The translations under genes were made by a program, and so were the position numbers. 64,000 nt of DNA from the human T2T-CHM13v2.0 reference genome, Homo sapiens. The stretch lies in NCBI RefSeq assembly GCF_009914755.1, contig NC_060925.1; one strand, 5' to 3'. Below, piece by piece: positions 39,710-42,869 of the stretch (the stretch's first letter is position 1; each line of letters opens with the position of its first letter). The notes beneath the pieces are model-generated. The model saw only the letters and a list, made by a program, of their open reading frames with translations. It did not search any database and was not told the DNA's origin.

Positions 39710-39820
39710 CAAGAAGTTCTTTGAAACTAATGAGAACAAAGATACAATGTACCATAATCTCTGGGACACAGCTAAGGCCATGTTAAGAGGGAAGTTTATA
39801 GCACTAAATGCCCATATCAA
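39710..39820 (+). mobile_element. L1PA-type ORF2 fragment (first segment of composite insertion)
   Basis: caagaagttctttgaaactaatgagaacaaagatacaatgtaccataatctctgggacacagctaagg...gcactaaatgcccatatcaa. Homologous to 13420-13529 of the nested L1. Confidence 0.92.
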
Positions 39821-40184
39821 TGTTCAATCCATGCCTAACCGAAAGGATAATGAAGTTCAGGTTGTACGAGTAAGAGGACACTATAAAGGTCAGCAAATTG
39901 GTACAGTAGTCCAGGTTTACAGGAAGAAATATGTCATCTACATTGAATGGGTGCAGCAGGAAAAGGCCAATGGCACAACTGTCCATGTAGGCATTCACCC
40001 CAGCAAGGCGGTTATCACTAGGCTAAAACTGGACAAAGACCGCAAAAAGATCCCTGAACAGAAAGCCAAATCTCACCAGGCAGGAAAGGAAAAGGGCAAA
40101 TACAAGGAAGAAAAAATTGAGGAGATGCAGGAATAAAGTAATCTTATATACAAGTTTTGATTAAAATTTGAAATGAAGAAAAAA
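39818..40184 (+). pseudogene. RPL26: RPL26 processed pseudogene, 5'-truncated, fused in frame to an L1 ORF2 fragment
   Basis: Translation [17 protein letters not shown](VR)GHYKGQQIG...[16 protein letters not shown] matches the C-terminal part of ribosomal protein L26 (uL24). Intronless. 3'UTR taaagtaatcttatatacaag, ATTAAA at 40160-40165 and a short A-tract. Confidence 0.95.
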
Positions 40185-42043
40185 TATATATACTCATGGT
40201 GGCCATTGAGTTTTAGGCACACTGGTGACCGTCATTGCTACAGCTGCTCACTTTCTCTGGTAAACCAGAAAGACCTCAGACACTGGGTTCCTCACTCACA
40301 TCCACGGGGATGCAGCCCTGCCAGTGCTCAGGCAGAGTTCTCAGGAGCGGGGACACCTTACTGTTAACTTGTGTGTCGTCTTCTAAAGTGATCTCATTAA
40401 CTGCTGCTGTGACCATGTTAGTCAAAAGTCACAGAGAAGACTGGAGATGGTGCACGTGTTTGCAAGTGGATCGGGGGAACCAGCCCCAATATTTCAACGT
40501 ACGTTATTTTCTATTTTCCCTAAGTGTCAGCCAGTCTTACAAATAAAGGGATAGAGTACAAAAGAGAGAAATTTTAAAGCTGGGTGTCCGGGGGAGACAT
40601 CACATGTCGGCAGGTTCCATGATGCCCCCTGAGCTGTAAAACCAGCACGTTTTTATTAGTGATTTTCAAAGGGGAGGAAGTGTACAAATAGGGTGTGGGT
40701 CACAGAGATCACATGCTTCAAGGGCAATAAAAGATCACAAGGCAGAAGGTCAGGGAGAGATCACAAGGTCAGGATGAAACTAGAATTACTAATGAAGTTC
40801 CATGTCCCACTGTGCACGCATTGTCATTGATAAACCTCTTAACAGGGTTCAAGAGCAGAGAACTGGTCTGACTAGAATTTGCCAGGCTGGAATTTCCTAA
40901 TTCTAGCAAGCCTGGGGGGTGCTGCAGGAGGCCAGGGCGTATTTCATCCCTTATCTGTAACTGCATAAGGCGGACACCCCTAGAGCAGCCGTTTTAGAGG
41001 CCTCCTCCTGGGAATGCATTCTTTTCCCAAGGCTGTTAATTATTAATATTCCTTGCTGGGGAAAGAATTCAGTGATATTTCTCTTACCCATTTTTGGCAA
41101 TAAGAGAAATATGGCTCTGTTCTGCCCAGGTCACAGGCAGTCAGACCCAATGGTTATCTCCCTTGTTCCCTCAACATCGCTGTTATCCTGTTCTTTTCTC
41201 AAGGTGCTCAGATTTCATATTGTTCAAAAACACACGCTTTATGAACAATTTGTGCAGTCAACGCAATCATCACAGGGTCCTGAGGCAACATACATCCTCA
41301 GGTTACAAAGATGATGGGATTAAGAGATTAAAGTAAAGACAGGCATAGGAAATTATAAGAGTATTGATTGGGGAAGTGATAAATATCCACGAAATCTTCA
41401 TGATTTATGTTTAGAGATTGCAGTAAAGACAGGCATAAGAAATTACAAAAGTACTAATTTGGAGAACTAACAAATGTCCATGAAGTCTTCACAATTTATT
41501 TTCTTCTGTCATGGCTTCAGCAGGTCCCTCCATTCGGGGTCTCTGACTTCCCGCAACACATGTGCCTGTGTGTGTGCATGCTCCTGTGTGCGTGTGCATG
41601 TGTGTATGGCTAAAATTAAGTCATGCTGTCAGCCACTCATGATCTCACTTGAAATAGTGTTTGGAAATGGGAATGGTTTTGTCCTGCATGCTGATGTGTC
41701 CAGAATTTCATTTAATAATAAAAGGAAAATGTGTGGTTACTGAAAAATGTGTATTGATACAGAATTTCGTAAGAGCCATGTTAGACAAAGCAACTCTCTT
41801 TTTCAACCACTGCTCATCAGTTTCTGTAGAGTAAAAAAATCTGTACATATTTTGGAATCTGGAGAATCCTATATAAATCATTTGTTACTTAAATCTGTGA
41901 AAAACATGTTTCTTTGGAGGAAAATGTATGCATTTATAAGCATTCTGTGGAATCAGTTTTAATTGTATTCATGTAATTGTCTCTAAGTGATCATCATCTT
42001 CATAGCAATAAGAAATTCATTAAAATGTCCATGTTCCATAATT
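40185..42043 (+). other. Unidentified mRNA-3'UTR-like segment (~770 bp without the MER11), part of the composite insertion
   Basis: Non-repeat-like sequence, continuous across the MER11 TSD. Ends 19 nt after ATTAAA (42019-42024), exactly where L1 ORF2 resumes. Parent not recognised. Confidence 0.5.
40469..41558 (-). mobile_element. MER11 (HERV-K11/HML-8) solo LTR
   Basis: The reverse complement starts tgttgcgggaagtcagagaccccgaatggagggacc and ends ...gttgaaatattggggctggttcccccgat. 6-bp TSD caagtg (40463-40468) / catgtg (41559-41564). Confidence 0.9.
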
Positions 42044-42690
42044 CTAAAGAACTAGAAAAACAAGAGCAAACAAATCCCAAAGCTAGAAGAAGACAAGAAG
42101 TAACCAAAATCAGGGCTGAATTGAAGGAGGTCGAGACACACACACACAAAAAAAAAAATTCAAAAGGTCAACAAATCTAGGAGGTGGTTTTTTAAAAAAA
42201 TTAATAAAATAAGACCACTAGCTAGACTAATAAAGTAGAAAAGAGAGAAGATTCAAATAAGCACAATCAGAAATAATAAGGGGAATATTACCACTGACCC
42301 CACCGAAATTCAAAAACCATCAGATAATATTATAAATATCTCTGTGCACATAAACTAGAAAATCTGGAAGAAAAAGATAAATTCCTGGACATACAGACCT
42401 TCCCAAAACTGAACCAGGAAGACATTGAATCTCTGAACAGACCAATAATGAGTTCTGAAATTGAGGCAGTAATAAATAGCCTACCAACCCAAAAAAGCCT
42501 GGGACAAGATGGATTCACAGCTGAATTCTACTAGATGTACAAAGAAGAGCTGGTACCATTCCTACTGAAACTATTTCAAAAAATTGAAAAGGAGGGACTC
42601 CTCCCTAATTTATTTTATGAGGCCAGCATCATCCTAATACCAAAACCTGGCAGAGATACAACAAAAAAAGGAAATCTCAGGCCAATATCC
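42044..42690 (+). mobile_element. L1PA-type ORF2 fragment (continuation of 39710-39820)
   Basis: ctaaagaactagaaaaacaagagc...ctcaggccaatatcc. ORF 42535 [21 protein letters not shown]. Resumes about 40 nt downstream of the first piece when aligned to the nested L1 (13570 onward). Confidence 0.93.
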
Positions 42691-42869
42691 TGTTTTATGG
42701 GTATCTTTTTAGTTTTCCCAAAAGGCTGATAAATTTCAACATTTTGAATACATCATTGTTAATTCTGAGTTGGCAGAGGTAAACTAACCAACTACCATTA
42801 TGTTTTAGTACTAAGGGATATATACCTTTCAATAAAGTTACTGAAATGCAAAAAATAAAAAATAAAAAA
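42691..42869 (+). pseudogene. Second unidentified mRNA-like 3' end with AATAAA and poly(A) (last segment of composite insertion)
   Basis: About 160 nt of non-L1 sequence joined to mid-ORF2. AATAAA at 42831-42836 and A-rich tail at 42850-42869. Confidence 0.6.

What the first reader, a model, noticed from the sequence alone, without database searches (positions are those of the whole stretch)
39710..42869. Five-segment chimeric retro-insertion: L1, RPL26 mRNA, unknown mRNA Y, same L1 resumed, unknown mRNA X, poly(A)
Seen: all segments are in the same orientation. (1) L1 ORF2 39710-39820. (2) RPL26 cDNA joined through a shared CAA (39818-39820), ending in ATTAAA and a short A-tract. (3) About 770 bp of non-repeat sequence ending 19 nt after ATTAAA with no tail. 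(4) L1 ORF2 resuming only ~40 nt downstream of where piece 1 stopped (by alignment to 13529/13570 in this window). (5) The L1 stops mid-ORF2 at 42690 and is joined to ~160 nt of non-L1 sequence with AATAAA and the only long A-tail. No internal TSDs are visible and the L1 has no 3'UTR. Established: L1 ORF2p makes bipartite chimeras such as U6-L1 by template switching or RNA ligation. Inference: one reverse-transcription event primed on mRNA X, switched to L1 RNA, took an excursion onto the 3' ends of two more mRNAs, and returned to almost the same L1 position, i.e. four switches over four RNAs. The outer TSD is ambiguous (aatttgg 39703-39709 vs aactttgg 42868-42875).
Basis: partly seen in the sequence, partly recalled or inferred. 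Interest (0 to 1): 0.85.

Follow-up and report, generated by a model that had tools for sequence, protein, structure and literature searches.

The report
Seven-piece, four-RNA retrocopy mosaic
One ancient L1-driven insertion on human chromosome 1 stitched together seven cDNA pieces copied from four different RNAs, two of them also present as flipped arms, which makes it a rare fossil of a reverse transcriptase hopping repeatedly between templates.

Summary
I identified the two unknown mRNAs. "Y" is the last ~740 nt of a chr10 3'UTR (WDR37, name recalled), later split by a 1,089-bp LTR-like repeat. "X" is the last 160 nt of the chr5 cyclin G1 3'UTR (CCNG1, name recalled).

The cassette is larger than reported. 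Just left of it lie two inverted arms:
- 39566-39673: the 5' part of RPL26 mRNA.
- 39674-39709: the 36 nt of the WDR37 3'UTR that end where the direct WDR37 piece begins.

The order is RPL26-inv, WDR37-inv, L1a, RPL26-dir, WDR37-dir, L1b, CCNG1, poly(A). This order is interleaved, and nested sequential insertions cannot produce it.

Best reading (about 0.55): one L1-mediated event with twin priming. Two converging cDNAs each switched templates, giving four or five switches. Each RNA was re-engaged close to where it had been left: 41-43 nt for L1, 38-41 nt for RPL26, and a 2-10 nt overlap for WDR37.

Segment divergences fit one age. The outer TSD is unresolved. Print describes chimeras with up to three parts, and a few multi-piece insertions in cultured cells. 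This is a new, extreme variant of a known kind.

The parts
39552..39559 (.). TTACCCTC, left copy of the only non-AT-rich 8-mer shared by the two flanks. It is a candidate TSD, not a secure one.
   Evidence: One search lists the shared k-mers. In one search, 651 of 5000 shuffles of the right flank also share some 8-mer with the left flank, so the match is not significant.
39560..39565 (.). AAGGTA, 6 nt of filler between the flank and the inverted RPL26 arm. Origin unknown. AAGGT also precedes the right-hand TTACCCTC.
   Evidence: RPL26 homology ends at 39566.
39566..39673 (-). Inverted arm of RPL26 mRNA. It runs from about nt 23 of the 5'UTR, through the ATG, to about CDS nt 95.
   Evidence: In one search this stretch matches the 5' parts of about 35 RPL26 copies and parent exon chr17:8288437-8288530, always on the strand opposite to the direct arm. 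One search gives the alignment to 20 retrocopies. One search shows the arm ends 38-41 nt upstream of the start of the direct arm.
39674..39709 (-). Inverted arm of the WDR37 3'UTR (reverse complement of chr10 parent L013 9223-9258).
   Evidence: 28 of 36 ungapped matches, the best of about 20,000 positions on both strands of the 10-kb parent (next best 22). The matched stretch ends 2-10 nt inside the start of the direct WDR37 piece; 0 of 1000 shuffles reach 28 (maximum 25).
39710..39820 (+). L1a, an L1 ORF2 fragment from just after the endonuclease domain.
39818..40184 (+). Direct arm of RPL26 mRNA, from CDS about nt 133 to the normal poly(A) site at 40178, plus A6. Annotated as RPL26P11. CAA 39818-39820 is shared with L1a.
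40185..40469 (+). Direct WDR37 3'UTR piece, first part. Homology to the parent is clear from about 40190 to 40452. The end of this part lies in a TG-rich tract.
40470..41558 (-). Later insertion of a 1,089-bp interspersed LTR-like repeat (MER11-like by recall). It is not part of the original event.
   Evidence: 2,216 first-look candidates, 40 of them scored. Most of the scored copies match query 41-1129 at 87-92%. The chr10 parent is uninterrupted here.
41559..42043 (+). Direct WDR37 3'UTR piece, second part. It ends 19 nt after ATTAAA with no A-tail.
42044..42691 (+). L1b, L1 ORF2 resuming 41-43 nt downstream of L1a and ending about 50 nt into the RT domain.
42691..42851 (+). Last 160 nt of the CCNG1 3'UTR, with AATAAA. 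T 42691 is shared with L1b.
   Evidence: Upstream exons of the chr5 locus carry Cyclin_N.
42852..42868 (+). A-rich tail (AAAATAAAAAATAAAAA), the only real poly(A) remnant in the cassette.
42869..42906 (.). 38 nt of AT-rich sequence of unknown origin, between the tail and the right-hand TTACCCTC. It could be target DNA or extra templated DNA.
   Evidence: its likeness to 39655-39709 is not significant (52 of 2000 shuffles reach the score, and the reverse-complement control scores higher); no convincing match in any parent RNA locus.
42907..42914 (.). TTACCCTC, right copy of the candidate TSD.

Best explanation
This is one L1-mediated retro-insertion, made by target-primed reverse transcription with twin priming.

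Primary cDNA (shown by the order of the pieces; the mechanism is inferred). It started on the poly(A) tail of a CCNG1 mRNA and copied 160 nt. It then moved to an L1 RNA inside ORF2 and copied 648 nt (L1b). It moved to the 3' end of a WDR37 mRNA and copied about 740 nt. It moved to the short A-tail of an RPL26 mRNA and copied 358 nt. Finally it returned to the same L1 RNA 41-43 nt upstream of where it had left, and copied 111 nt more (L1a).

Second cDNA. It was primed from the opposite DNA end. It started on the same RPL26 RNA 38-41 nt upstream of where the first cDNA had stopped, and ran to about nt 23. It then moved to the WDR37 RNA at the point where the first cDNA had left it and copied 36 nt.

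Joining. The two cDNA ends were joined at 39709|39710, where CA is shared. Junctions carry 0-4 nt of microhomology.

Proposed reason for the returns (inference). Each RNA stays base-paired to the growing cDNA. Its uncopied 5' part is therefore held next to both polymerases and is re-engaged close to its exit point.

Later event. An LTR-like repeat inserted into the WDR37 piece.
For: (a) All parts are retro-copies.
- RPL26 is intronless across three parent exons.
- The WDR37 and CCNG1 pieces are the 3' ends of 3'UTRs. They stop at sites where other retrocopies of the same genes also stop.

(b) The inverted arms are real.
- RPL26-inv is 108 nt and matches about 35 RPL26 copies on the opposite strand.
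- WDR37-inv matches 28 of 36 positions. No shuffle out of 1000 reaches that, and the match sits exactly at the start of the direct piece.

(c) The order RPL26-inv, WDR37-inv, L1a, RPL26-dir, WDR37-dir, L1b is interleaved.
- The two RPL26 arms enclose L1a, while the two L1 pieces enclose RPL26-dir plus WDR37-dir.
- Nested insertions give only nested orders.

(d) Paired breakpoints are close together.
- L1: 41 nt apart in 13 of 22 copies.
- RPL26: 38-41 nt.
- WDR37: 2-10 nt overlap.

(e) There are no internal TSDs or tails. WDR37 has no tail and RPL26 has only A6.

(f) Private divergence is compatible with one age.
- L1a 5/106, L1b 49/626, RPL26-dir 22/348, RPL26-inv 7/102.
- WDR37 12/283, CCNG1 3/156.
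- Homogeneity p=0.068. L1+CCNG1 57/888 against RPL26+WDR37 41/733 gives p=0.53.

(g) The cassette is unique in the assembly.

(h) Precedent in cultured cells (PMC11702581, section 7 read).
- Nine de novo insertions carried two RNAs.
- One twin-primed insertion had two extra RT pieces at its inner junction.
Against: - No secure TSD. The only candidate (TTACCCTC) is not significant (651 of 5000 shuffles). It is separated from the insert by 6 nt on the left and 38 nt on the right that have no known source.
- The site next to it is not a good L1 endonuclease consensus (read from the sequence).
- CCNG1 is less diverged than the rest: 3/156 against 95/1465 pooled, Fisher p=0.02. It does not differ from WDR37 alone (p=0.28).
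- Read in sense, the inverted block plus the direct block looks like an RPL26 cDNA sitting inside WDR37 at TTTT|AAAAG with up to 10 nt repeated. Part of the mosaic could therefore have been pre-formed.
- No orthologous empty site could be examined, because no other primate genome is held. 'One event' rests on architecture, not on phylogeny.
- The gene names WDR37 and CCNG1 are recalled. Pfam gives only Cyclin_N (2 of 2 chr5 ORFs above cut-off) and WD40 (1 of 2 chr10 ORFs, 24.9 bits, below the 27-bit cut-off).
Confidence: 0.55

Rival explanations
1. This is still one twin-primed event, but with fewer switches. An RPL26 retrocopy had already inserted into the 3'UTR of a WDR37 allele, now lost or never fixed, at TTTT|AAAAG. 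The composite WDR37-RPL26-WDR37 mRNA then served as a single template. Twin priming on it gives both inverted arms in the observed order without any switch by the second cDNA. Only three switches remain: CCNG1 to L1, L1 to the composite, and the composite back to L1.
For: - Read in sense, the inverted block is WDR37(..9258) joined to RPL26(nt 23..). The direct block is RPL26(..end)A6 joined to WDR37(9249/9257..).
- The join sits at a perfect L1 endonuclease motif, with up to 10 nt repeated, as for a TSD.
- RPL26 retrocopies are very numerous (42 matches).
Against: - The present chr10 gene is uninterrupted at that point.
- No other locus in the assembly joins the two. The Y1 piece has 2 hits only, itself and the parent.
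- The RPL26 tail would be at most 6 A, very short for a retrocopy young enough to be still segregating.
- The supposed TSD copies are poorly alike in this degraded TA-rich stretch.
Confidence: 0.25
2. Sequential nesting. An older chimera of an L1 fragment plus the CCNG1 3' end was present first. Later an RPL26-WDR37 chimera inserted into the L1 with a ~41-bp target deletion.
For: - The two L1 pieces are nearly contiguous.
- The right-hand junction lies at CT|AAAAG-like L1 sequence, a plausible endonuclease site.
- L1b is nominally the most diverged piece, at 49/626.
Against: - The inverted RPL26 and WDR37 arms lie to the left of L1a, outside the supposed target. A twin-primed insert into the L1 would put them between L1a and the direct arm.
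- The inner insert has no TSD and no tail.
- The supposedly older CCNG1 piece is the least diverged, at 3/156.
- The two groups have equal divergence (p=0.53).
- It needs two independent rare chimeras, one landing inside a 760-bp target.
Confidence: 0.05
3. One reading: a single one-directional cDNA with four switches, five segments, boundaries 39710-42869 and TSD aatttgg/aactttgg.
For: The five same-strand segments and their order are correct.
Against: - It leaves out 39566-39709, which holds the matching upstream parts of RPL26 and WDR37 in inverted orientation.
- Its left TSD copy is WDR37-derived sequence.
Confidence: 0.03
4. Break repair that captured loose cDNA fragments. A double-strand break, made by L1 endonuclease or otherwise, was repaired by end joining. 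Repair ligated in several separately made cDNA pieces, with short stretches templated from nearby DNA. No continuous template switching was involved.
For: - There are 6-nt and 38-nt stretches of unknown source at the two ends, and no clear TSD.
- Junction microhomology is 0-4 nt.
- In cultured cells, RT-extended ends were seen to take up additional cDNA products, and three insertions carried extra DNA templated from near the site (PMC11702581, section 7 read).
Against: - Random capture does not explain why five of five plus-strand pieces share one orientation.
- It does not explain why each of three RNAs appears twice with breakpoints 0-43 nt apart.
- It does not explain why pieces begin at mRNA 3' ends.
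Confidence: 0.08

Closest known systems
Bipartite and tripartite chimeric retrogenes made by template switching during LINE reverse transcription (Buzdin, Gogvadze and colleagues; PMC2104539, passages read)
   Same: Intronless copies of different cellular RNAs are fused head to tail in one orientation. The 3'-most part ends in poly(A). New templates are entered at or near their 3' ends.
   Different: That paper describes at most three parts: two in human without detectable direct repeats, two in mouse and one in a fungus. In those elements the 3' part is usually the L1 or SINE 3' end. Here there are seven parts from four RNAs. L1 is present only as two internal ORF2 fragments with no 3'UTR. 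An mRNA (CCNG1) is the 3'-most part. Two parts are inverted.
Twin priming / 5'-inverted L1 and processed-pseudogene insertions (Ostertag and Kazazian 2001, cited from recall and through PMC4476161 and PMC11702581, passages read)
   Same: There is an inverted upstream arm and a direct downstream arm of the same RNA, with breakpoints close together. The inverted arms lie at the 5' side of the insertion.
   Different: The arms are not joined to each other, because an L1 fragment lies between them. Two different RNAs each show an inverted arm. The RPL26 gap (38-41 nt) is larger than the 1-10 bp reported as usual in cultured cells (PMC11702581).
Non-canonical de novo L1-mediated insertions in L1-expressing cultured cells (PMC11702581, section 7 read)
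   Same: That study found insertions with sequences from two transcripts, one twin-primed insertion carrying two further RT pieces at its inner junction, and extra DNA templated near the site.
   Different: Those are somatic events in an over-expression system, and the most complex one named has about four pieces. This is a fixed germline insertion, with private divergence of about 5-8% for most pieces, and it has seven pieces. Its Figures S7-S10 could not be seen.
L1 chimeras catalogued by comparative genomics (Law and Burns, PMC13174262 and the bioRxiv version; passages read)
   Same: L1 recombined with mRNA fragments. Template switching, RNA ligation and twin priming are considered as mechanisms.
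   Different: That census targets sequences arriving at the 5' side of an L1 that keeps its 3' end. RPL26, CCNG1 and WDR37 do not occur in the main text of the bioRxiv version. Supplementary tables were not opened.

Membership tests
L1-mediated chimeric retrogene (template-switch chimera) | Parts are cDNA copies of different RNAs fused directly, without introns | tested here: met
   RPL26 spans three parent exons without introns. The WDR37 and CCNG1 pieces map to unlinked 3'UTR ends. The L1 pieces map to ORF2.
L1-mediated chimeric retrogene (template-switch chimera) | Poly(A) at the 3' end of the whole element | tested here: met
   A 17-nt A-rich tail follows the CCNG1 cleavage site at 42852-42868.
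L1-mediated chimeric retrogene (template-switch chimera) | Flanked by 10-20 bp target-site duplications at an L1 endonuclease motif | tested here: inconclusive
The only candidate is TTACCCTC (8 nt). It is offset by 6 and 38 nt from the insert and is not significant (651 of 5000 shuffles).
Twin-primed (5'-inverted) retro-insertion | Inverted 5' arm and direct 3' arm derived from one RNA | tested here: met
   RPL26: 39566-39673 (-) and 39818-40178 (+). WDR37: 39674-39709 (-) and 40185-42043 (+).
Twin-primed (5'-inverted) retro-insertion | Inner breakpoints close together (small deletion or duplication) | tested here: met
   38-41 nt are missing for RPL26. There is a 2-10 nt overlap for WDR37.
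Twin-primed (5'-inverted) retro-insertion | The two arms are joined directly to each other | tested here: not met
   For RPL26, the 36-nt WDR37 arm and the 111-nt L1a lie between the arms. For WDR37, L1a and RPL26-dir lie between them.
Sequentially nested insertions | Properly nested order, with the inner element carrying its own TSD and tail | tested here: not met
   The order is interleaved. There is no tail after WDR37, only A6 after RPL26, and no internal direct repeats.
Segmental (DNA-level) duplication of another locus | A second copy of the junctions elsewhere in the genome | tested here: not met
   Y1 has 2 hits (itself and the parent). X has 4 hits (itself, the parent and two ordinary retrocopies). 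None of these carries the neighbouring pieces.

The most novel reading that the evidence does not exclude
The locus records a rule of L1 reverse transcription that has not been stated before.

The rule: RNAs that have been partly copied stay tethered to the nascent cDNA through their RNA:DNA hybrids. They are then re-engaged within about 0-45 nt upstream of the exit point, either by the same polymerase or by the twin-primed one.

Under this reading, one ORF2p complex made five template switches over four RNAs on two converging cDNAs. That is the most complex single L1-mediated insertion on record. The two skips of about 40 nt (L1 41-43 nt, RPL26 38-41 nt) would mark the stretch of template occluded by a stalled enzyme.
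Probability: 0.35. Interest if true: 0.7.

Novelty: new variant of a known kind. Interest (0 to 1): 0.6.

Why it matters
Template switching and twin priming by L1 ORF2p are usually inferred from two-part products, and those can also be explained by two separate insertions. Here the pieces are interleaved, so sequential insertion cannot explain them. The locus is therefore unusually clean evidence that one retrotransposition complex can hop many times between RNAs, and that both DNA ends can prime on the same set of RNAs.

The near-return of each RNA to its exit point can be tested against long-read catalogues of new insertions and in ORF2p biochemistry.

Practically, it also shows that RPL26P11 is annotated only in part. 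Repeat and pseudogene annotation misses short inverted arms that change how a locus is read.

Tried and rejected
- Tandem repeats: none found in 39000-43500.
- The 38 nt at 42869-42906 as a duplicate of 39666-39709. This would have meant a long TSD, or a copy of the RPL26-inv/WDR37-inv junction. Rejected: 52 of 2000 shuffles reach the alignment score and the reverse-complement control scores higher.
- The same 38 nt as a piece of any parent RNA (WDR37, CCNG1, RPL26 or L1 loci, both strands). No match stands out. A first blastn-short attempt gave only noise.
- TTACCCTC as a secure TSD. Not significant.
- Microhomology at the WDR37 3' end / L1b junction (ACTA or CTAAAA). It depends on where the mRNA ended. 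Two other retrocopies end at different points, one about 3 nt away and one about 12 nt further on, so this is left open.
- TSD of the LTR-like repeat. Not recognisable in the TG-rich tract.
Its own age was therefore not measured.
- DNA-level inversion after a simple nested insertion. Rejected on paper: inverting a block that contains L1a would flip L1a, which is in direct orientation.
- Two opposite-strand nicks about 150 bp apart in a pre-existing L1. Rejected on paper: the two cDNAs would sit on different strands and would segregate to different daughter molecules.
- Literature. 'RPL26P11' occurs in 1 paper, by its title unrelated to this locus and not opened. No paper found or 52 describes this locus or an L1-mediated chimera with more than three named RNA parts in a germline genome.
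Full report

The five same-strand segments are all there.

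- L1a (39710-39820) and L1b (42044-42691) align to the L1 in the same window at 13419-13523 (83.8%) and 13573-14211 (81.2%). In that reference L1 the endonuclease domain lies in 12699-13544 and RVT_1 begins near 14158. The two pieces therefore cover the linker between the endonuclease and the first ~50 nt of the RT domain of ORF2.
- I fetched 29 genomic L1 copies with L1b as query (12,354 first-look candidates, 40 scored, best non-self 86%). Of these, 22 align to the ends of both pieces. In them the pieces are 41 nt apart in 13 copies, 40 nt in 6, and 29, 42 and 44 nt in one each. The gap is 43 nt if CT 42044-45 is not counted as L1.

**The RPL26 piece**

- 39818/39821-40178 matches parent exons chr17:8286011-8286149 (94%) and chr17:8283742-8283915 (92%), with no intron between them.
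- It ends at the poly(A) site used by other RPL26 retrocopies, in the older '...GAAATGAAG' form, and is followed by only six A.
- CAA 39818-39820 can be read as either L1 or RPL26.

**Identity of Y**

- 40190-40452 and 41567-42046 are adjacent at chr10:1127956-1128685 on the + strand, at 78% and 88% identity.
- The stretch between them, 40470-41558, is an interspersed repeat. It has 2,216 first-look candidates, 40 of them scored, and most scored copies match the same 1,089 bp at 87-92%. From recall it looks like a MER11-type LTR in minus orientation. It is a later insertion, because the parent is uninterrupted there.
- Upstream of the chr10 match there are exon-like ORFs. One has a WD40-type match (E 2.9e-5, 24.9 bits, below Pfam's 27-bit cut-off), and the last ends about 2.8 kb before the match. 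From recall of the protein and of the map position this is WDR37, so Y is the end of its 3'UTR.
- Homology to the parent stops at 42043, 19 nt after ATTAAA, and no A-run follows.
- Two other partial retrocopies of the same 3'UTR exist. The chr2:201501055 copy ends within ~3 nt of that point, and the chr11:4983278 copy ends ~12 nt further on.

**Identity of X**

- 42691-42851 matches chr5:163980026-163980184 at 96%.
- The 10 kb upstream holds ORFs with Cyclin_N in 2 of 2 tested. From recall their sequence is cyclin G1 (CCNG1).
- X ends at the same base as retrocopies on chr2 and chr8, which are followed by A-runs.
- L1b and X share one T at 42691.

A genome search with the left flank (39410-39709) returned 36 matches. 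Apart from the query's own locus and one weak, short, unplaced hit, they are RPL26 copies, including the parent 5' exon chr17:8288437-8288530. All align to 39565-39673 on the strand opposite to the direct RPL26 piece.

- Alignment to 20 retrocopies shows that 39566-39673 is the reverse complement of RPL26 mRNA, from about nt 23 of the 5'UTR, through the ATG, to about CDS nt 95.
- On contiguous retrocopies, this arm ends 38-41 nt upstream of where the direct arm begins.
- The next 36 nt (39674-39709) are the reverse complement of the WDR37 3'UTR at L013 9223-9258. The match is 28 of 36 ungapped, the best of about 20,000 positions on both strands of the 10-kb parent, with the next best at 22. 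None of 1000 shuffles exceeds 25.
- That WDR37 stretch ends 2-10 nt inside the start of the direct WDR37 piece.
It is not target DNA.

**Architecture (+ strand)**

| Coordinates | Piece | Strand |
|---|---|---|
| 39566-39673 | RPL26 inverted arm | - |
| 39674-39709 | WDR37 inverted arm | - |
| 39710-39820 | L1a | + |
| 39818-40184 | RPL26 direct arm + A6 | + |
| 40185-42043 | WDR37 direct piece (split later by the repeat) | + |
| 42044-42691 | L1b | + |
| 42691-42851 | CCNG1 | + |
| 42852-42868 | A-rich tail | + |

The two RPL26 arms enclose L1a. The two L1 pieces enclose RPL26-dir and WDR37-dir. Insertions nested one in another can only give nested orders, so this crossing order cannot arise that way.

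The arms cannot be unrelated copies either. Their breakpoints on the RNAs are 38-41 nt apart for RPL26, and they overlap by 2-10 nt for WDR37.

I also considered two DNA-level alternatives on paper. A DNA inversion after a simple nested insertion would flip L1a, which is in direct orientation. A pair of distant nicks in a pre-existing L1 would put the two cDNAs on different strands.

**Mechanism proposed**

One target-primed reverse transcription event with twin priming.

- The first cDNA ran CCNG1 tail, then L1 (L1b), then the WDR37 3' end, then the RPL26 tail, then L1 again (L1a).
- The second cDNA, primed from the other DNA end, ran RPL26 (from 38-41 nt upstream of where the first had stopped, to nt ~23) and then WDR37 (from the point where the first had left it, for 36 nt).
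- The two ends were joined at 39709|39710, where CA fits both WDR37-inv and L1a.
- Junction microhomologies read from the alignments:

| Junction | Shared bases |
|---|---|
| L1a / RPL26 | CAA |
| RPL26 tail / WDR37 | up to AAAA |
| WDR37 end / L1b | 0-3 nt |
| L1b / CCNG1 | T |
| RPL26-inv / WDR37-inv | A |
| WDR37-inv / L1a | CA |

The order of pieces is shown. The direction of synthesis, the switching and the tethering idea are inference. The tethering idea is that a partly copied RNA stays hybridised to the cDNA and is re-used just upstream of the hybrid.

**Age**

Differences private to the cassette, against the majority of related copies or against parent plus another retrocopy:

| Piece | Private differences |
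|---|---|
| L1a | 5/106 |
| L1b | 49/626 |
| RPL26-dir | 22/348 (4 are CpG transitions) |
| RPL26-inv | 7/102 |
| WDR37 (41737-42024) | 12/283 |
| CCNG1 | 3/156 |

- Homogeneity over the six pieces gives p=0.068.
- L1+CCNG1 (57/888) against RPL26+WDR37 (41/733) gives p=0.53.
- CCNG1 alone is low against the pooled rest (p=0.02), but not against WDR37 (p=0.28).
- The reference L1 copies are 5.7-12.8% from their own majority, median 7.5%.
- The upstream WDR37 parts could not be polarised. They differ from the parent by 55/258 (direct) and 8/36 (inverted), which are similar to each other.

Nothing suggests that RPL26/WDR37 arrived later than L1/CCNG1.

**What stays open**

The outer boundary is unresolved.

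- The only non-AT-rich 8-mer shared by the flanks is TTACCCTC (39552-59 and 42907-14). However, 651 of 5000 shuffles of the right flank share some 8-mer with the left flank.
- Six nt (AAGGTA) on the left and 38 AT-rich nt on the right lie between these copies and the recognisable insert.
- The 38 nt are not significantly like the left-hand arms or like any parent RNA locus.
- They may be target DNA, which would mean there is no TSD. They may instead be extra templated DNA of the kind reported at three de novo insertions in cultured cells (PMC11702581, section 7).

A second open point concerns the inverted and direct blocks. Read in sense, they look like an RPL26 cDNA inside the WDR37 3'UTR at TTTT|AAAAG. 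A composite mRNA from a lost allele would cut the number of switches from five to three. The present gene and the rest of the assembly show no such allele.

**Comparison with print**

- PMC2104539 (passages read) reports bipartite chimeras as common. Its tripartite ones are two in human without detectable direct repeats, two in mouse and one in a fungus.
- PMC4476161 (passages read) adds inverted snRNA/L1 chimeras attributed to twin priming. It notes that triple chimeras could also be two events.
- PMC13174262 and its preprint (outline and passages read) catalogue sequences joined to the 5' side of L1s that keep their 3' end. RPL26, CCNG1 and WDR37 do not occur in the preprint's main text. Its supplementary tables were not opened.
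- PMC11702581 (section 7 and passages read; figures not held) reports, in L1-over-expressing cells, nine insertions with two RNAs and one twin-primed insertion with two extra RT pieces at the inner junction. It also reports that the secondary RT usually starts 1-10 bp from the end of the primary one.
- 'RPL26P11' occurs in one paper, unrelated by its title and not opened.
- Searches found no description of this locus, nor of a germline chimera with more than three named RNA parts.

**Verdict**

The locus is an extreme, interleaved variant of known L1-mediated chimeras. It is valuable because its order of pieces rules out sequential insertion without needing outgroups. Outgroup genomes are still needed to fix the boundaries and to settle the composite-RNA alternative.

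Noticed in passing
window 40470-41558: A 1,089-bp interspersed LTR-like repeat in minus orientation (MER11-like by recall) sits inside the TG-rich tract of the WDR37-derived piece. The best genomic copies are 87-92% identical. Its own target-site duplication is not recognisable.
   Followed up: partly
window 39864-39875: The RPL26 direct arm carries an apparent 6-nt tandem duplication (gtacga gtaaga) where the parent has a single GTACGT. It breaks the reading frame together with other substitutions.
   Followed up: partly
L010 (chr5:163978526-163981684), about 1640-1659: All three CCNG1 3'-end retrocopies (this one, chr2:50804479 and chr8:115121194) read ...ACTGAAATGCAA or a near variant, where the present gene reads ...AATGAAATTCAA. 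The gene's own 3' end therefore changed after the copies were made (2 parent-private sites of 156).
   Followed up: partly
L003 (chr2:201501055-201501359) and L004 (chr11:4983278-4983378): These are two further 5'-truncated retrocopies of the same WDR37 3'UTR end. They stop at slightly different points, which suggests more than one cleavage site.
   Followed up: partly
L050 (chrX:91126705) and L051 (chrY:5473274): An RPL26 retrocopy is present in near-identical form, with the same flanks, on X and Y. This is as expected for an X-transposed or shared X-Y block.
   Followed up: no
L057/L058 (chr7:145076765 and chr7:144888055): The same RPL26 retrocopy, with identical flanks, occurs twice on chr7 in opposite orientation about 190 kb apart. 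This points to an inverted segmental duplication.
   Followed up: no
window 12699-15144: The long L1 in the window has ORF2 split into three open stretches (282, 274 and 267 aa) that carry the endonuclease and RT domains. It served here only as a local reference.
   Followed up: partly
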